The notes under the pieces are model-generated. The model had not been told where the DNA came from. It ran no database searches and saw only the letters and a list, made by a program, of their open reading frames with translations. DNA of 64,000 nt, from assembly GCA_016787505.1 (NCBI GenBank), contig JAEUUQ010000619.1:316-64315 (forward strand), read 5' to 3'. The stretch is from Saprospiraceae bacterium. Its GTDB lineage: Bacteria; Bacteroidota; Bacteroidia; Chitinophagales; Saprospiraceae. Position 1 is the first letter of the stretch, and the number at the start of each line of letters is the position of its first letter. Both the position numbers and the translations under genes were made by a program. This document shows, piece by piece, positions 9,421-22,723 of this stretch.

Positions 9421-9503
9421 GTTTAGCGATTGGGGTGAGTTGTAGGTTGTAGGTTGTAGGTTGTAGGTTGTAGGTTGAAGCCAACTAAACCCTATCGCTA
9501 AAC
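9421..9503. repeat. Tandem-repeat hairpin element inside the operon.
   Basis: GTTTAGCGATTGGG pairs with CCCTATCGCTAAAC. The loop carries 5x GTTGTAG. Confidence 0.85.
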
Positions 9504-12358: not shown

Positions 12359-13786
12359 ATGAAAGCACAAGACCTCCTGTTACAAGCCGCCCGCCAATGG
12401 CCCCGGCACATTGCCATCTACGATGTTCATGGCGCGATGACCTATGACGAACTGGCACAGACCGTGCGTCGGTTCAGCCGGTTTCTGAGCGATTCCGGAG
12501 TGCAGCCCGGCATGGGGGTAGGCGTCTTGGGCGACAATAGCCGGCACTTCATCGCCTGGGTTTTTGCCGTGATGGATGCCGGCGCGGTCGTCATGCCCAT
12601 CTCCAGCCAGCTCAAAGCCGGCGAACTGGCAGATATACTGCAGACCGCAAGGCTACACGCAGTAATTGAAGAAAAAAATACGGCGCTATCCGCACAACTT
12701 CCCGTGGTTGCCACTGAAGCGGGCTGGCAACTGGCCTTTAACTCCGCCGTCGACCCGCAGCAGCCGTTTGCCCCTCAGGCGTCGGAGGCTGCCCTGGTGC
12801 GCTTCACCTCGGGCACCACGGGCGTATCGAAAGGCGTCATTCTCTCGCACGCCTCTATCGAAGAGCGCACCGCCGCTGCCAACAAAGTGCTGGAACTGGG
12901 CCCAGGTGACGTAGTCGTTTGGATTTTACAAATGGCCTACCACTTTGTAGTGTCTATCATCCTCTACCTGCGTTACGGCGCCTCCATAGCCATCTGCGAC
13001 AACTTCATTGCCGATACGATCATTGAGACAACCAACCGCTACGGGGGCAGCTTTTTGTATGCTTCGCCCATGCATATCCGCTTATTGGCCAACGACCGCA
13101 GCGACAGGCAGATGCCCAGTCTGCGGCGCGTAATCTCCACCTCTACCGGTTTGGCGGTGGCCGACAGCCAGGCCTTTACGGGCCGCTGGGGATTGCCCGT
13201 GGCACAGGCCTACGGCATCATCGAAATCGGGTTGCCCATCATCAACCTGGCGCATGCCCAGGACGCGCCCGGCGCCGTAGGATATGCCCTGCCCGACTAC
13301 CGGGTGGGCATCCTCGACGAGCAACTTCAAGAGCTGCCCGATGGGGAAACCGGGCAATTGGCCATCAGGGGGCCGGGCCTGTTTGCCGCCTACCTGCAAC
13401 CGCCCAAATTGCGCGAGGACATTCTTCAGAACGGCTGGTTTCTCACCGGCGACCTGGCTTCGCGCCGCCCCGACGGACTGCTCACCATCGAAGGCCGCAA
13501 AAAAAGTATGATTAATGTGTCGGGCAATAAAGTTTTCCCCGAAGAAGTCGAAGCCGTATTAAACACCCACCCTGCCGTGGCTATGAGTCGCGTAAAAGGC
13601 GCCCCCCACCCTTTTCTCGGTGAATGCGCCAGTGCCGAAGTCGTGCTACACCCCGGCGCCGAAGTCGACGCCGAAACCCTCATCACCTATTGCCGCCAAC
13701 GTCTTTCTACCTACAAAGTACCGCAGCGCCTCGCCTTCGTCGACACGTTGCCGATGACGGATAGCGGGAAGGTGAGGAGGGTTTAG
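12359..13786 (+). CDS. AMP-dependent synthetase/ligase (acyl- or aryl-ACP/CoA ligase).
   Basis: A3 core FTSGTTGVSKGV, GWFLTGD, and a terminal GKV(R)R. ATG 12359 lies 2 nt after the upstream stop. The longer ORF from 12251 overlaps the FAD gene. Confidence 0.85.
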   Translation: MKAQDLLLQAARQWPRHIAIYDVHGAMTYDELAQTVRRFSRFLSDSGVQPGMGVGVLGDNSRHFIAWVFAVMDAGAVVMPISSQLKAGELADILQTARLHAVIEEKNTALSAQLPVVATEAGWQLAFNSAVDPQQPFAPQASEAALVRFTSGTTGVSKGVILSHASIEERTAAANKVLELGPGDVVVWILQMAYHFVVSIILYLRYGASIAICDNFIADTIIETTNRYGGSFLYASPMHIRLLANDRSDRQMPSLRRVISTSTGLAVADSQAFTGRWGLPVAQAYGIIEIGLPIINLAHAQDAPGAVGYALPDYRVGILDEQLQELPDGETGQLAIRGPGLFAAYLQPPKLREDILQNGWFLTGDLASRRPDGLLTIEGRKKSMINVSGNKVFPEEVEAVLNTHPAVAMSRVKGAPHPFLGECASAEVVLHPGAEVDAETLITYCRQRLSTYKVPQRLAFVDTLPMTDSGKVRRV

Positions 13787-13856
13787 TGAACTGTGAACAG
13801 TGAACTGTGAACAGATCAAGGTGCAGTTCACTGTTCACAGTTCACTGTTCACTAAC
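13781..13856. terminator. Bidirectional terminator hairpin built from tandem 7-mers (GTGAACW).
   Basis: GTGAACTGTGAACAGTGAACTGTGAACAG - loop - GTTCACTGTTCACAGTTCACTGTTCAC. It exactly fills the 74-bp gap between convergent stops. Confidence 0.7.
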
Positions 13857-15158: not shown

Positions 15159-15818
15159 ATGGGATTGATCAAAGAAACGCTGGCGCTGATGCGCAAAGAC
15201 CTCGTACTGGAGTGGCGCGGCAAGTATGCACTTAGCGGCATTTTGCTATATGTATTCTCAACGGTATTCATCATTTACACCTCATTTGACGAAGTAGAAC
15301 CCAAAGCCTGGAATACCTTGTTTTGGGTCGTATTGTTATTCGCATCTATCAGTGCAATAGTAAAAAGTTTTGTGCAGGAAAATAGTCCCCGCCAGTTGTA
15401 TTATTATTCGCTGACGAACCCTATTGCCGTAATATTATCCAAAACACTTTACAATATCGGCTTGTTGATGGTGGTAAGCCTGCTTACCTGGGCTTGTTTC
15501 GCGCTAATGGCGGGAAATGCCGTAAAAGACAACTCGCAATTTTTTCTGGCTTTATTTCTGGGCAGCGTGGGTTTGTCGATTACGTTTACCTTTGTAGCTG
15601 CCATTGCCGGCAAAGCCGACCACAGCGCTACTTTGCAGGCGATAATGAGTTTTCCGCTGGTGCTGCCGATTTTGCTTACACTCATTCGCCTTTCGGCAAA
15701 TGCGCTGCGGCTGGAGCAAGACAGCAGTATCAGCGACGATATTGCCATCCTGGCGGGGATCGATTTGTTGTCGCTGGGGATGGCGCTGTTGTTGTTTCCT
15801 TTTTTGTGGAGAGAGTAG
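15159..15818 (+). CDS. ccmB: Heme exporter permease, CcmB family.
   Basis: About 220 aa and multi-span. The N-terminus LMRKDLVLEWRGKYALSGILLY is typical of CcmB. Confidence 0.7.
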   Translation: MGLIKETLALMRKDLVLEWRGKYALSGILLYVFSTVFIIYTSFDEVEPKAWNTLFWVVLLFASISAIVKSFVQENSPRQLYYYSLTNPIAVILSKTLYNIGLLMVVSLLTWACFALMAGNAVKDNSQFFLALFLGSVGLSITFTFVAAIAGKADHSATLQAIMSFPLVLPILLTLIRLSANALRLEQDSSISDDIAILAGIDLLSLGMALLLFPFLWRE

Positions 15819-15883
15819 AGACGCAAAATTTTGCGTCTCTATGGCATTGCATGAATAGTGAGACGCAAAATTTTGCGTCTCTA
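15816..15883. repeat. Two copies of a 22-24-bp perfect palindrome (A)GAGACGCAAAATTTTGCGTCTC(T).
   Basis: Copies at 15817-15840 and 15860-15881, about 20 bp apart, between ccmB and ccmC. Confidence 0.9.
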
Positions 15884-15901
15884 CTCTTAAATTGAATTTG
15901 C

Positions 15902-16972
15902 ATGAAAAATCACTGGTGGAAGGCCCTGGGCGTCATCATCCTTTTATACACCTTCACGGCGGGAATGCTATTGCCGCTCAAACCCGGCATTGTGGCGGTA
16001 AATCCCTCTGCAGTGCGCACCGGCGATACCGTTACGTTGTCGGTACAGGGCTACAATACTTTTTTTACCCAATCAAAAACACCGGTGCGCGCCTGGCTCA
16101 AGCTGGACGAGCAGCGCGCGTTGGCAGCCAAAGATATTGAGGTCATTAGTGATAATGCACTGCGCGTTTCTTTTGATATTCCGGCTCATTTGCCCGTTTC
16201 GCGCCGGGTGCAGGATTTTACGCTGCTGCTCGACAACGACGTGGACGGCGCTTCGGTGCTGCCCAGCGCCCTGCTGGTCACCCAGGATTCGATACAACCC
16301 GAACGCGGGGAAGCGCTGTGGGCAAACAGCCCCATCACCGACCTCCACGAAAAAAGCGGCATTACTTTTCCTTTCCGCAATATCCTGGCCGAAACGATTC
16401 GCAATACGTATTTCCACGTGGCCTTGTGGTTTGCCATGCTGTTTTTGTTTATCGGCGGGGTGATCAGCAGTGTGCGCTACCTGGCCAACAACGACCTCAA
16501 CGCCGATTATCGCGCGCAGGCACAAACTACGGTGGGGCTTATATTCGGCCTGCTGGGACTCATCACGGGTATCATCTGGGCGCGCAATACCTGGGGCGCC
16601 GGCTATAAGTTCTGGAACCTGCGCGAGGTAGATGTAAAACAGGCGATGACGATGGTCGCCCTTTTTGTGTACCTGGCTTATTTTGTGCTGCGAATGGCTT
16701 TTGAAGACGCCGAACGCAAAGCCCGCCTCTCGGCAGTGTATAATATTTTTGCTTTTGTGGCGCTTATCCCGCTTATTTATGTAGTCCCCCGGCTCACCGA
16801 TAGCCTGCACCCCGGCTCGGGTGGCAATCCCGCACTCGGCGGCGAAGACCTCGACAATACGATGCGGATGATTTTTTACCCCGCGATTATCGGCTGGACG
16901 CTTCTGGGCTTCTGGATGGCGCAGCTTTACTACCGACTGATTAAGGCGCAGATGAGGGTTGATGAGGGTTGA
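15902..16972 (+). CDS. ccmC: Cytochrome c biogenesis protein, CcmC/CcsA family, with an N-terminal periplasmic extension.
   Basis: Multi-span C-terminal core with a Trp-rich segment (IIWARNTWGAGYKFWNLREV) and flanking His residues. Located next to ccmB. Confidence 0.7.
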   Translation: MKNHWWKALGVIILLYTFTAGMLLPLKPGIVAVNPSAVRTGDTVTLSVQGYNTFFTQSKTPVRAWLKLDEQRALAAKDIEVISDNALRVSFDIPAHLPVSRRVQDFTLLLDNDVDGASVLPSALLVTQDSIQPERGEALWANSPITDLHEKSGITFPFRNILAETIRNTYFHVALWFAMLFLFIGGVISSVRYLANNDLNADYRAQAQTTVGLIFGLLGLITGIIWARNTWGAGYKFWNLREVDVKQAMTMVALFVYLAYFVLRMAFEDAERKARLSAVYNIFAFVALIPLIYVVPRLTDSLHPGSGGNPALGGEDLDNTMRMIFYPAIIGWTLLGFWMAQLYYRLIKAQMRVDEG

Positions 16973-17066
16973 TGAGGGGTTGTGGGTTATGGGTTGTGGG
17001 TTATGGGTTGTGGGTTATGGGTTGTGGGTTATGGGTTGTGGGTTATGGGTTGTGGGTTATGGGTTT
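16951..17066. repeat. Tandem array: 3x GATGAGGGTT followed by about 6x GTGGGTTATGGGTT.
   Basis: Read directly. It overlaps the last codons of ccmC. Confidence 0.9.
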
Positions 17067-17082
17067 AGAAGTCAATACTAGC

Positions 17083-17183
17083 AGTCGTAGAGTCATACAG
17101 TCATACAGTCATACAGTCATACAGTCGTACAGTCGTACAGTCCTACAGTCCTACAGTCGTACAGTCGTACAGTCCTACAGTCC
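17083..17183. repeat. Tandem 8-mer array (GTCNTACA) of about 12 units, with block-wise variants ATAC x4, GTAC x2, CTAC x2, GTAC x2, CTAC.
   Basis: Read directly. It abuts or overlaps the 3' end of the minus-strand phosphoesterase gene. Confidence 0.9.
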
Positions 17184-17675
17184 CCTTTTCCCGAGTTCAA
17201 TGACTTCGAGGTTCTTGATATCGCCGGCGTCGAGCGTGAAGCGGATGAGAGTTTTGACGTGGTGGAAGCCCTCGTTGCCACAGGCGCCGGGGTTGATATG
17301 CAGCAAGTCGAAGCGGGGGTCGGGTATCACTTTGAGAATGTGGGAGTGGCCGCAGATATACAGCCGGGGTCGGTGGCTGCGCAGCAGGTCGCTGACGCGC
17401 CTGGTGTAGCGCCCGGGATAACCGCCGATATGGGTAATAAACACATCGACGCCTTCGCAAGTAAAAAATAAATCGAGCGGATAGCGCAGTTGCATCGCCT
17501 TGTCGTCGATATTGCCATAGACGGCCCGAAAGGGCTTGAAGGCTTCCAACTTATCAGCTACATCGGCGCTACCTATATCTCCGGCGTGCCATATCTCGTC
17601 GCATTCCGCAAAATAGGTAAATACTTTATCGTCGAGAAAACTGTGCGTATCGGAGAGCAGCCCTATGCGTTTCAT
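17175..17675 (-). CDS. Metallophosphoesterase, YfcE/MJ0936 family.
   Basis: LSDTHS...HAGDIG...GNID...ITHIGG...CGHSH metallophosphoesterase motifs. Confidence 0.85.
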   Translation of the reverse strand: MKRIGLLSDTHSFLDDKVFTYFAECDEIWHAGDIGSADVADKLEAFKPFRAVYGNIDDKAMQLRYPLDLFFTCEGVDVFITHIGGYPGRYTRRVSDLLRSHRPRLYICGHSHILKVIPDPRFDLLHINPGACGNEGFHHVKTLIRFTLDAGDIKNLEVIELGKRGL

Positions 17676-22157: not shown

Positions 22158-22723
22158 ACGAACTCCTTCAACTCGACCAGGCTCTGTTTTACTGGATCAA
22201 CAATGACTGGCACACGCCCTGGCTCGATGCTATCATGCCATACTGGCGCGACAAAAGCTTCTGGATACCGCTATATGCGATCGGGGTGGCGCTGGTAGTA
22301 TGGAAATACCGGCTAAAAAGCCTCTATTTCCTGGTGGCGGTGGCCATCACTATTGCCGTAGCCGACCAAACCAGCAGCGAACTCATCAAAAAAAATGTAA
22401 AAAGGCTGCGGCCCTGCAACGACCCCGAGGTAAAAACCCAGGTCGATCTGTTGATTCCCTGCGGGGTAGGATATAGTTTCACTTCCTCACACGCTGCCAA
22501 CCACTTTGCACTGGCGGCTTTTCTGAGTTTAACGCTAGGGCGCCGTTACCGCCGTATCCGCGTGCCGCTGTATGTATGGGCGGGCTCTATTGCGCTGGGG
22601 CAGGTGTACGTGGGGGTGCATTATCCGCTGGATATTACGATAGGCGCGCTGCTGGGGGTGCTTGTGGGTTGGGCGATGAGCAGGTTGTATTTGAGGTGGT
22701 TTTCCTTAGAGGTGACAGGGTGA
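22154..22723 (+). CDS. PAP2-family phosphatase (membrane).
   Basis: KRLRP...SFTSSHA...GVHYPLD tripartite PAP2 motif. ATGA overlap with the upstream gene. Confidence 0.85.
   Translation: MNELLQLDQALFYWINNDWHTPWLDAIMPYWRDKSFWIPLYAIGVALVVWKYRLKSLYFLVAVAITIAVADQTSSELIKKNVKRLRPCNDPEVKTQVDLLIPCGVGYSFTSSHAANHFALAAFLSLTLGRRYRRIRVPLYVWAGSIALGQVYVGVHYPLDITIGALLGVLVGWAMSRLYLRWFSLEVTG

What the first reader, a model, noticed from the sequence alone, without database searches (positions are those of the whole stretch)
16951..17183. Two unrelated tandem arrays back to back between convergent genes, one with ordered variant blocks
16951-17066 is G/T-rich: GATGAGGGTT x3 followed by GTGGGTTATGGGTT x~6. 17083-17183 is an 8-mer array whose fourth base changes in blocks (GTCATACA x4, GTCGTACA x2, GTCCTACA x2, GTCGTACA x2, GTCCTACA). 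The two arrays are not complementary to each other, so this locus is not a hairpin. The 8-mer is the same word as the arm of the 27.5-kb hairpin (CGTACAGTCGTA). Each array overlaps the 3' codons of its adjacent gene, so the C-terminal peptides (...MRVDEG and ...GKRGL) are partly repeat-encoded. The G-rich array on the plus strand has GGG runs spaced 4-7 nt apart, which is G-quadruplex-compatible.
Basis: seen in the sequence. Interest (0 to 1): 0.4.

Follow-up and report, generated by a model that had tools for sequence, protein, structure and literature searches.

The report
Mismatched two-arm repeat between convergent genes
The two back-to-back repeat arrays are real and vary between strains, and they are a mismatched left and right half of a short-repeat layout that fills about 2,000 gaps between genes in this Saprospiraceae bacterium, a kind of bacterial DNA that is described but not explained.

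Summary
GATGAGGGTT x2.8 and GGGTTGTGGGTTAT x6.4 (16951-17065) and CAGTCGTA x12.6 (17082-17182) lie between a ccsA-like gene and a convergent metallophosphoesterase gene. Each side supplies the last codons and the stop of its gene.

The two sides are not complementary, and neither RNA strand folds better than shuffled sequence.

An independent metagenome contig about 98% identical has the same layout and spacer, with 3 and about 6.75 copies. The locus is therefore real and changes by slippage.

The locus is not a one-off. The genome (a Saprospiraceae MAG) holds about 2,000 arrays of 7/8-nt period built from a few dozen words. In paired arrays each word family always takes the same side. The left arm is G/T-rich and reads as sense after stop codons. 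Two thirds of adjacent pairs are complementary hairpins. This locus is one of about a dozen clearly mismatched pairs that still follow the left-then-right order.

Relatives at about 92% identity carry a different, complementary hairpin in this gap.

The closest described relatives are the convergent G-rich heptamer repeats of Xanthomonas and Nostoc (Rehm 2015) and cyanobacterial STRR. This scan has met the class on other DNA at least 18 times. Function is unknown; I favour neutral or selfish slippage-prone DNA.

The parts
15902..16972 (+). ccsA-like cytochrome c assembly gene. Its last 7 codons and its TGA stop lie in the 10-mer array.
   Evidence: Pfam PF01578, E 2.8e-14. ORF listed. Relatives share the protein only up to ...AQM, after which the tail differs.
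16951..16978 (+). Left-type array 1: GATGAGGGTT x2.8. TGA occurs in all three frames, so it caps the ccsA frame.
   Evidence: TRF, 100% matches. The word family recurs elsewhere in the genome and is assigned to the left side.
16977..17065 (+). Left-type array 2: GGGTTGTGGGTTAT x6.4, G-quadruplex-compatible, on the sense strand of ccsA.
   Evidence: TRF score 178. G4Hunter 1.38 with 13 GGG runs. GTGGGTT and ATGGGTT are always left arms. The 98%-identical strain L053 has only 3 copies.
17066..17081 (.). Unique 16-nt spacer TAGAAGTCAATACTAG between the two sides.
   Evidence: No related spacer sits next to any other array in the genome. It is identical in L053.
17082..17182 (+). Right-type array: CAGTCGTA x12.6 with variant blocks. 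On the - strand it reads TACGACTG, the left-type orientation for the metallophosphoesterase gene, and it supplies that gene's TAG stop.
   Evidence: TRF score 146. ACAGTCGT is always a right arm, 27 of 27 and 44 arms in the wider count. L053 has about 6.75 copies and no GTCATACA block.
17175..17675 (-). Metallophosphoesterase gene (Metallophos_2), convergent with ccsA. Its stop codon, the last Leu codon and part of the Gly codon lie in the array.
   Evidence: Pfam PF12850, E 4.4e-29. Found in 31 of 31 related genomes searched.

Best explanation
The locus is a mismatched two-arm member of a genome-wide class of polar, slippage-prone short tandem repeats. They fill intergenic gaps in this Saprospiraceae genus.

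In this class a gap normally holds one left block and one right block. The left block is usually G/T-rich, and its 5' end abuts the gene on the left. The right block is usually its reverse complement, so the pair can fold into a long hairpin. Here the left block comes from the GTNGGTT / GATGAGGGTT word families and the right block from the ACAGTCGT family, so no hairpin or cruciform can form.

Shown:
- Both arrays are real and are inherited together with their spacer.
- Their copy numbers change independently between 98%-identical strains, by whole units and by multi-unit blocks, as replication slippage predicts.
- The arrays reach into the flanking genes and provide their stop codons.
- At about 92% identity the same gap holds a different, complementary pair.

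Inferred:
- The two arms are semi-independent modules, and each can be replaced by a word family from elsewhere in the genome. Short identities with the old flank at both junctions (GATG on the left, CAGTCC on the right) hint at template switching or microhomology-mediated copying.
- At this convergent gap the arrays are tolerated, neutral or selfish DNA and not a specific signal.
- The fixed left/right order reflects inheritance of the two-arm layout, selection by the flanking genes' expression, or both. Sense RNA is G/U-rich after stops and A/C-rich before starts.
For: Abundance: 1,993 arrays (395 per Mb, 1.7% of bases). Periods 7 and 8 dominate, with only about 42 distinct 7-mers and 47 distinct 8-mers.

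Location: 81% of arrays lie outside my crude gene calls or overlap gene ends, and 285 overlap a 3' end.

Pairing: of 472 adjacent pairs, 322 are complementary, that is 67% against about 11% with shuffled partners.

Fixed sides: no word is seen on both sides. ACGACTGT is left 27 times and right 0 times; GTNGGTT is left 43 times and right 0 times. Left-oriented words have G>C in 174 of 197 types.

Mismatched pairs follow the same order: left-then-right 19-23, right-then-left 0, left-left 2, right-right 2.

Gap architectures: LR 331, L 168, R 148. Only 2 contain RL and none is LRLR.

Solitary arrays: next to 3' ends, 151 read left-type in sense against 49 that do not. Next to 5' ends, 73 read right-type in sense against 39 (summed).

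No hairpin at this locus, against z = -6 to -10 for cognate pairs.

Strain comparison with L053: same spacer, 14-mer x3 against x6.4, 8-mer x6.75 against x12.6.

Orthologous gap in G002 and G003: a GAGAGKGT / CTCTCACC hairpin of 120 nt.

Other gaps in the window also gain, lose or swap elements. One swap occurred within 2% divergence.

The same family combination recurs at C473:13603-13765.
Against: - No expression, 3'-end or read-level data could be obtained, so 'no specific function' is an inference from turnover, not a measurement.
- The near-absolute left/right rule, which also holds for the compositionally neutral ACGACTGT word, is stronger than a purely neutral model predicts without strict inheritance or selection.
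- How one arm is replaced was not observed. The microhomologies rest on one locus and could be chance.
- Gene calls were a crude home-made ORF filter.
- Unit families are not independent, so the sign tests overstate significance.
Confidence: 0.6

Rival explanations
1. Functional gene-end punctuation that does not need a hairpin. Each arm acts alone on its own gene's transcript. The G-rich left array after ccsA would form an RNA or non-template-strand G-quadruplex or R-loop that pauses or ends transcription or protects the 3' end. The TACGACTG array would do an equivalent job for the metallophosphoesterase, perhaps as a protein-binding site.
For: - The arrays sit flush on both stop codons.
- The left array scores G4Hunter 1.38 with a 108-nt canonical motif.
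- Genome-wide, sense RNA reads left-type after stops in 151 cases against 49, including solitary and mismatched arrays, where hairpin geometry cannot explain it.
- Rehm et al. 2015 (PMC4692102) report the same placement for GGGAATC repeats, G-quadruplex formation in vitro, and that most of the repeats are transcribed.
Against: - The - strand array has no G runs (G4Hunter -0.17) and is less structured than shuffles, z = +2.5.
- Many left-arm families are not G-rich.
- No U-tract or terminator consensus was found and there is no Rfam match.
- Close relatives manage with a different element, or at other gaps with none.
- Copy number halves between strains.
Confidence: 0.17
2. A chimera of two miniature mobile elements. 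A GTNGGTT-armed palindrome and an ACGACTGT-armed palindrome inserted next to or inside each other, and the inner arms were then deleted, leaving the left arm of one and the right arm of the other.
For: - Subfamilies of ACGACTGT hairpins share conserved non-palindromic cores (15 or more copies, in both orientations). Four copies share the identical spacer atatgatcattgt. Whole elements are therefore copied between loci.
- Small selfish-looking genes (PF05635, PF13366) sit in the loops of such arm pairs, including one ACGACTKT pair.
- Elements appear or vanish between close relatives while the flanks stay intact.
Against: - No intermediate was seen. None of about 1,100 array clusters has an LRLR architecture and only 2 contain RL.
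- There is no terminal inverted repeat and no target-site duplication is evident at this locus.
- The spacer matches no other element.
- The conserved cores are not derived from the IVP-carrying loop.
- GTNGGTT hairpins have no shared core.
Confidence: 0.15
3. Assembly artefact. The short-read assembler joined two contig ends that each finished in a repeat array, or mis-estimated the arrays.
For: - The genome is a 640-contig MAG, and 51 arrays lie within 100 bp of contig ends.
- Reads could not be inspected.
Against: - An independent metagenome contig of 89.8 kb has the same left arrays, the same 16-nt spacer, the same right array and the same flanking genes.
- The convergent gene pair is conserved in G002 and G003.
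- Both arrays (89 and 101 bp) are short enough to be spanned by ordinary reads.
Confidence: 0.02

Closest known systems
G-rich heptamer SSRs of Xanthomonas (GGGAATC) and Nostoc (GGGGA(C/T)T), singly or as 'convergent' inverted pairs (Rehm et al. 2015, PMC4692102)
   Same: - Intergenic 7-nt tandem arrays, hundreds per genome.
- The G-rich strand lies on the sense strand within 50 bp of, or overlapping, the stop codon, and on the antisense strand just upstream of start codons.
- Pairs occur only in convergent orientation.
- The repeats are G-quadruplex-capable, and function is unknown.
- The left array here fits all of these.
   Different: - Those genomes use essentially one word. This genome uses dozens of 7-, 8- and 10-nt words, many of them not G-rich.
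- Mismatched left/right pairs such as this one are not mentioned in the passages of that paper that I read.
- Rehm et al. report increased genomic stability around their repeats. Here the elements turn over within 2-8% divergence.
STRR (short tandemly repeated repetitive) heptamers of heterocystous cyanobacteria (Mazel et al. 1990; my own knowledge and leads, paper not read here)
   Same: Abundant intergenic heptanucleotide tandem arrays belonging to several word families in one genome.
   Different: - A different phylum (Bacteroidota) and different words.
- 8-mers are as common as 7-mers.
- A strict left/right order with mostly complementary pairs.
TAACTGA direct repeats of Beggiatoaceae, cyanobacteria and some Bacteroidetes (MacGregor 2015, PMC4679880)
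   Same: - Intergenic heptamer arrays with a fixed orientation relative to neighbouring start or stop codons.
- Indels in 7-nt steps between strains.
- Long arrays in Bacteroidetes, with other heptamer direct repeats in the same intergenic regions.
   Different: - One word, mostly 2-6 copies, mostly just upstream of start codons, and almost never inverted pairs.
[quoted passage not shown]
MITEs and REP/BIME elements
   Same: Small non-coding intergenic repeats, often palindromic, often at 3' ends of genes. Some ACGACTGT hairpins here do behave like dispersed copies with a conserved core.
   Different: - This locus has no inverted repeat, no evident target-site duplication and a unique spacer.
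- The genome's RAYT-like Y1 transposase at C104 is flanked by its own ordinary REP palindromes, not by tandem arrays.
Intrinsic (bidirectional) transcription terminators between convergent genes
   Same: Position between two convergent stop codons. Relatives carry a strong hairpin there.
   Different: No stem at this locus, no U-tract, and no match in the terminator scan.

Membership tests
Polar intergenic short-tandem-repeat arrays (Rehm-type convergent heptamer SSRs / STRR-like) | Head-to-tail repeats of a 6-9 nt unit, three or more copies, far beyond chance | tested here: met
   TRF scores of 178 and 146, against a maximum of 72 in 20 Markov simulations.
Polar intergenic short-tandem-repeat arrays (Rehm-type convergent heptamer SSRs / STRR-like) | Many arrays per genome, built from a small set of words and concentrated between genes | tested here: met
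   1,993 arrays. 81% lie outside gene calls or overlap gene ends. About 42 heptamer and 47 octamer words.
Polar intergenic short-tandem-repeat arrays (Rehm-type convergent heptamer SSRs / STRR-like) | Fixed orientation: the G-rich (left-type) strand is sense next to stop codons, and pairs are convergent only | tested here: met
   Both arrays at this locus read left-type in the sense of their own gene. Genome-wide the counts are 151 against 49 at 3' ends, and RL pairs are essentially absent.
Polar intergenic short-tandem-repeat arrays (Rehm-type convergent heptamer SSRs / STRR-like) | G-quadruplex formation by the repeat | tested here: inconclusive
   The left array is predicted to be competent (G4Hunter 1.38). 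The right array is not (-0.17). In vitro folding cannot be tested here.
Two-arm tandem-repeat hairpin (the majority form in this genome) | The right arm is the reverse complement of the left arm, and the fold is far more stable than shuffles | tested here: not met
   Complementarity 0.37. No inverted repeat. z = +0.13 and +2.5 against -6 to -10 for true members.
MITE | Terminal inverted repeats, target-site duplication, and an internal sequence shared by copies | tested here: not met
   No inverted repeat. The junctions with the ancestral flanks show no evident duplication. The spacer is unique in the genome.
REP/BIME with RAYT | Imperfect 20-40 nt palindromes that also flank a Y1-transposase (RAYT) gene | tested here: not met
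   Of the three full-length Y1_Tnp genes, one (C104) is flanked by a different, classical REP palindrome and none is framed by tandem-word arms; one (C637) has a single heptamer array about 170 nt upstream.
Intrinsic terminator | G+C-rich stem-loop followed by a U-tract | tested here: not met
   No site found within 16951-17183, and the folds are not better than shuffles.
Contingency (phase-variation) SSR | Copy-number change shifts a reading frame or promoter spacing and switches a gene on or off | tested here: not met
   Only the last 2-7 codons lie in the arrays. The strain with half the copies keeps the same stops and the same tails.

The most novel reading that the evidence does not exclude
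The arms are independent, orientation-specific gene-end signals, and hairpin formation is dispensable. G/U-rich words placed as sense RNA directly after stop codons, and their complements before start codons, would mark transcript or translation boundaries in Bacteroidota. They might work through G-quadruplex or R-loop pausing, or through a word-binding protein. The small four-helix-bundle (PF05635) and PD-(D/E)XK_3 (PF13366) genes found inside such arm pairs are candidate partners. Mismatched pairs such as this locus would then be natural experiments showing that each arm works alone.
Probability: 0.13. Interest if true: 0.65.

Novelty: new variant of a known kind. Interest (0 to 1): 0.35.

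Why it matters
Short 7-8-nt tandem arrays are among the most abundant unexplained features of many bacterial genomes. Described cases include cyanobacterial STRR, the Xanthomonas heptamers and the Beggiatoa TAACTGA repeats.

This locus shows three things in one place:
- The left/right orientation rule of the arms does not depend on the arms being complementary.
- The two arms change copy number independently within 2% divergence.
- A whole element can be replaced at a fixed gap while the flanking genes keep only their core, with their last residues and stop codons coming from whatever repeat is present.

This argues against 'long hairpin terminator' as the general reason these arrays exist. 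Any explanation now has to account for polarity without pairing.

In practice, the arrays fragment short-read assemblies and make gene 3' ends unstable in annotation.

Tried and rejected
1. Hidden hairpin through G-U pairs. The + strand RNA folds to -68.7 kcal/mol, but shuffles average -69.3. The - strand folds worse than shuffles. Rejected.

2. Telomere-like inward growth of each arm. G-rich strands point 5'->3' into the gap from both sides, which suggested it. I tested for a gradient of unit heterogeneity from the outer to the inner end in 94 long arrays. The fractions were 0.268 and 0.261, p = 0.99. No support.

3. Chimeric spacer. The 16-nt spacer has no relative next to any other array.

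4. Empty ACGACTGT hairpins as deletion derivatives of the IVP-gene-carrying ACGACTKT element at C199. Core-to-loop alignments score within the shuffled null. Rejected.

5. REP/RAYT link. One Y1 transposase (C104) has its own classical REP palindromes, and none of the three full-length genes is framed by tandem-word arms.

6. Known RNA family or consensus terminator or promoter in the gap. None found.

7. Polarising the ancestral state with the 88%-identity genus member. Synteny is broken there: ccsA and the metallophosphoesterase are not neighbours. That genome does have a left-type GTTGTAG x7 array right after ccsA. Suggestive only.

9. Literature search for Saprospiraceae, tandem repeats and intergenic. 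It returned nothing.
Full report
**1. Observation**

Tandem Repeats Finder reports three arrays:
- GATGAGGGTT x2.8 at 16951-16978
- GGGTTGTGGGTTAT x6.4 at 16977-17065, with 100% matches and score 178
- CAGTCGTA x12.6 at 17082-17182, with 92% matches and score 146

A unique 16-nt spacer (17066-17081) separates the two sides. In 20 second-order Markov simulations of the window no array scored above 72.

The flanking genes are convergent:
- A ccsA-like cytochrome c assembly gene at 15902-16972 (+), PF01578.
- A Metallophos_2 phosphoesterase at 17175-17675 (-), PF12850.

The ccsA frame ends ...MRVDEG at a TGA inside the 10-mer array. The phosphoesterase frame ends ...GKRGL at a TAG created by the GTCCTACA variant unit.

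The two sides are not complementary:
- No inverted repeat of 10 nt or more exists in 16900-17250.
- Best complementarity is 0.37.
- The + strand RNA folds no better than shuffles (z = +0.13), and the - strand folds worse (z = +2.5).
- Genuine two-arm hairpins in this window and in relatives give z = -6 to -10.

The left array is G-quadruplex-compatible, with 15 GGG runs and a G4Hunter mean of 1.33-1.38. The right array is not (-0.17).

**2. Reality of the locus and its short-term dynamics**

Instead I scanned metagenome contigs for the spacer junction and found one independent 89.8-kb contig, Ga0209573_1000443 (L053). It is about 98% identical in the flanks.

It has the same 10-mer array, the same spacer and the same gene ends. 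It differs in copy number: only 3 copies of the 14-mer and about 6.75 of the 8-mer. It lacks the GTCATACA x4 block and the second G-G-C block.

So the layout is inherited and is not an assembly join. The 'ordered variant blocks' are the footprint of single-unit and four-unit (32-nt) slippage. The same contig has GTTGTAG x11.6 where the window has x5.6 at 9439.

**3. Genome-wide context**

The window lies in a 5.04-Mb, 640-contig MAG. Its closest named relatives are Saprospiraceae MAGs.

TRF finds 1,993 arrays, or 395 per Mb and 1.7% of all bases. Periods 7 (459 arrays) and 8 (398) dominate, along with their multiples. The arrays are built from only about 42 heptamer and 47 octamer words.

ACAGTCGT is the commonest octamer (89 arrays). 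GTNGGTT is the commonest heptamer group. Both arrays of the finding therefore use the genome's standard words, and GATGAGGGTT also recurs.

Using a crude ORF-based gene call (3,849 genes, 88% coding), arrays per gap are:

| Gap type | Arrays | Gaps |
|---|---|---|
| Convergent | 411 | 555 |
| Tandem | 785 | 2,107 |
| Divergent | 193 | 547 |

A further 285 arrays overlap a gene's 3' end.

**4. The grammar**

Of 472 adjacent array pairs (gap of 60 nt or less), 322 are complementary. That is 67%, against about 11% when partners are shuffled.

In these pairs every word family has a fixed side:
- ACGACTGT is the left arm 27 times out of 27.
- GTGGGTT, GTAGGTT and GTCGGTT are left arms 43 times out of 43.
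- No word occurs on both sides.

Left-oriented words have G>C in 174 of 197 types and are keto-rich. ACGACTGT is compositionally neutral and still never flips.

An inverted pair looks the same from both strands. 'Left word first' is therefore an intrinsic property, not a geometric artefact.

The test that does not depend on geometry uses arrays that are not in complementary pairs:
- Mismatched pairs with assignable words are left-then-right in 19 cases (23 with the wider word list), right-then-left in 0, left-left in 2 and right-right in 2.
- Gap architectures are LR 331, L 168 and R 148. Only 2 contain RL and none is LRLR.
- Solitary arrays next to a 3' end read left-type in the sense strand in 151 cases against 49.
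- Solitary arrays next to a 5' end read right-type in sense in 73 cases against 39 (summed).

The finding's locus obeys this rule. A GTGGGTT-type left block faces an ACAGTCGT-type right block, and each reads left-type in the sense of its own gene. About eleven assigned pairs are as unrelated as this one. The same family combination recurs at C473:13603-13765.

**5. Turnover**

Two species of the same genus, G002 and G003, are about 91-93% identical to the window in nucleotides. They keep the convergent gene pair but fill the gap with a 120-nt complementary GAGAGKGT / CTCTCACC hairpin, which folds with z = -6 to -8. Homology stops at ...GCGCAGATG on the left and resumes at CCGAGTTC on the right.

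The C-terminal tails of both proteins differ accordingly, and in the relatives too the stops lie inside repeat units. The new arrays meet the old flanks at short identities. On the left this is GATG. On the right it is CAGTCC, which is present at the edge in G003. This is one observation and could be chance.

Other gaps in the window behave alike:
- The GGTGACAS hairpin at 22711 corresponds to a solitary GGGGGCGA array in G003 and to nothing in G002.
- The GTGAACW hairpin at 13786 corresponds to a simple, non-repeated hairpin in G002 and also in the 98%-identical L053. That replacement is therefore very recent.
- Only the 27488 ACGACTGT hairpin is shared with G003.

ACGACTGT arrays (pattern hits) are abundant in G000 (434) and G003 (162) and rare in G002 (18). 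They were not found in the fourth genus member or in 60 other Saprospiraceae genera sampled. GTNGGTT-type arrays are patchy, found in 8 of 60 genera.

**6. How it most likely works**

Shown:
- Slippage-type copy-number change, independent in the two arms.
- No pairing between the arms.
- Repeat-encoded gene ends.
- Element replacement at a fixed gap.
- A polarity rule that holds without complementarity.

Inferred: the arms are semi-independent modules of a two-arm layout, and here one or both were replaced by words copied from elsewhere in the genome.

Whole-element copying does occur. ACGACTGT hairpins fall into subfamilies with conserved, non-palindromic 35-nt cores, found in both orientations, and four copies share an identical 13-nt spacer. 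These typically have one long homogeneous arm and one short variant-rich arm. That asymmetry itself shows that arm length is not held by pairing.

I found no intermediate for a 'two elements then deletion' origin, since no LRLR architecture exists. I also found no sign of directional growth.

I therefore favour tolerated, slippage-prone, partly self-copying DNA whose orientation is constrained by inheritance, by the neighbouring genes' expression, or by both (confidence 0.6).

The main rival is that each arm is a hairpin-independent gene-end signal, with a G-quadruplex or R-loop for the G-rich words and a binding protein for the others (0.17). The data allow this. Against it are the non-G-rich right array, the rapid turnover, and the absence of any U-tract, Rfam match or terminator-like site.

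A chimera of two mobile elements (0.15) and an assembly artefact (0.02) follow.

**7. Comparison with what is known**

Rehm et al. 2015 (PMC4692102) describe GGGAATC and GGGGAYT heptamer arrays with the following features:
- They lie within 50 bp of stop codons on the sense strand, or upstream of ORFs on the antisense strand.
- They often overlap the stop.
- They form pairs only in convergent orientation.
- They form G-quadruplexes in vitro, and most of the repeats are transcribed.
- Their function is unknown.

That is the same grammar for a single word. MacGregor 2015 (PMC4679880) describes oriented TAACTGA arrays, including long ones in Bacteroidetes, with 7-nt indels between strains. Cyanobacterial STRR are the classical case (my own knowledge).

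In the passages of these papers that I read, I did not find three things: a genome with dozens of word families all obeying the rule, mismatched left/right pairs, or the Saprospiraceae case.

This scan has met the class on other DNA at least 18 times, in several phyla. I therefore rate this a new variant of a known, unexplained kind, of moderate interest.

**8. Side observation bearing on mechanism**

I followed leads from earlier notes by looking for arm pairs with long loops.
- All four PF05635 (23S rRNA IVP, four-helix-bundle) genes of the genome lie between inverted tandem-word arms.
- At least three of the four full-length PF13366 (PD-(D/E)XK_3) genes do too.
- One IVP gene lies between ACGACTKT arms, the family of the finding's right array.

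The conserved cores of the empty ACGACTGT hairpins are not derived from that loop. The association is striking, but its direction is open. The genes may use the arms, or they may simply land in hairpin loops.

Noticed in passing
G000 contigs C199:10165-10738, C122:7626-8069, C392:14011-14506, C415:4164-4661 (IVP); C588:1290-1767, C249:6702-7359, C227:4633-5200, C626:2450-3050 (PDDEXK_3): All four PF05635 (23S rRNA intervening-sequence, four-helix-bundle) genes lie in the 'loop' between inverted tandem-word arms. So do at least three of the four full-length PF13366 (PD-(D/E)XK_3) genes. One IVP gene sits between ACGACTKT arms. These are candidate partners or passengers of the repeat system.
   Followed up: partly
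window 13781-13856, against L053 and G002: The GTGAACW / WGTTCAC tandem-arm hairpin replaces a simple, non-repeated hairpin. That simple hairpin is still present in a 98%-identical strain and in a 92%-identical species. The whole element was therefore swapped within less than 2% divergence. The old stem already contained GTGAAC...TTCAC.
   Followed up: partly
G000, e.g. C436:5807-6045, C145:1828-2019, C3:29140-29408, C473:10811-10973: A subfamily of ACGACTGT hairpins shares a conserved non-palindromic core of about 35 nt (...acaagatacgtgaag...) in both orientations. One arm is long and homogeneous (up to about 25 units) and the other is short and rich in variants. Four other copies share the identical spacer atatgatcattgt. 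This looks like a dispersed, copied element.
   Followed up: partly
G000 C104:7160-8020: A Y1-transposase (RAYT-like, PF01797) gene is flanked on both sides by classical REP-type palindromes (gctccgtagcg...cgctacggagc). This is a separate REP-RAYT system, unrelated to the tandem-word arrays.
   Followed up: no
window 9439-9477: The GTTGTAG array has 5.6 copies here and 11.6 in the 98%-identical contig L053. This is another strain-level copy-number difference.
   Followed up: yes
G003:C3, stitched G003 region 15838-15913 (ccmB-ccsA gap, about window 15818-15902): G003 has an AGTGAAC / GTTCACT tandem-arm hairpin between ccmB and ccsA, where the window has no array. The same word family sits at a different gap (13786) in the window.
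   Followed up: no
G000 contig ends: 51 arrays lie within 100 bp of contig ends, and several contigs begin inside long ACGACTGT arrays (C128, C204, C121). The arrays probably cause much of the MAG's fragmentation into 640 contigs.
   Followed up: no
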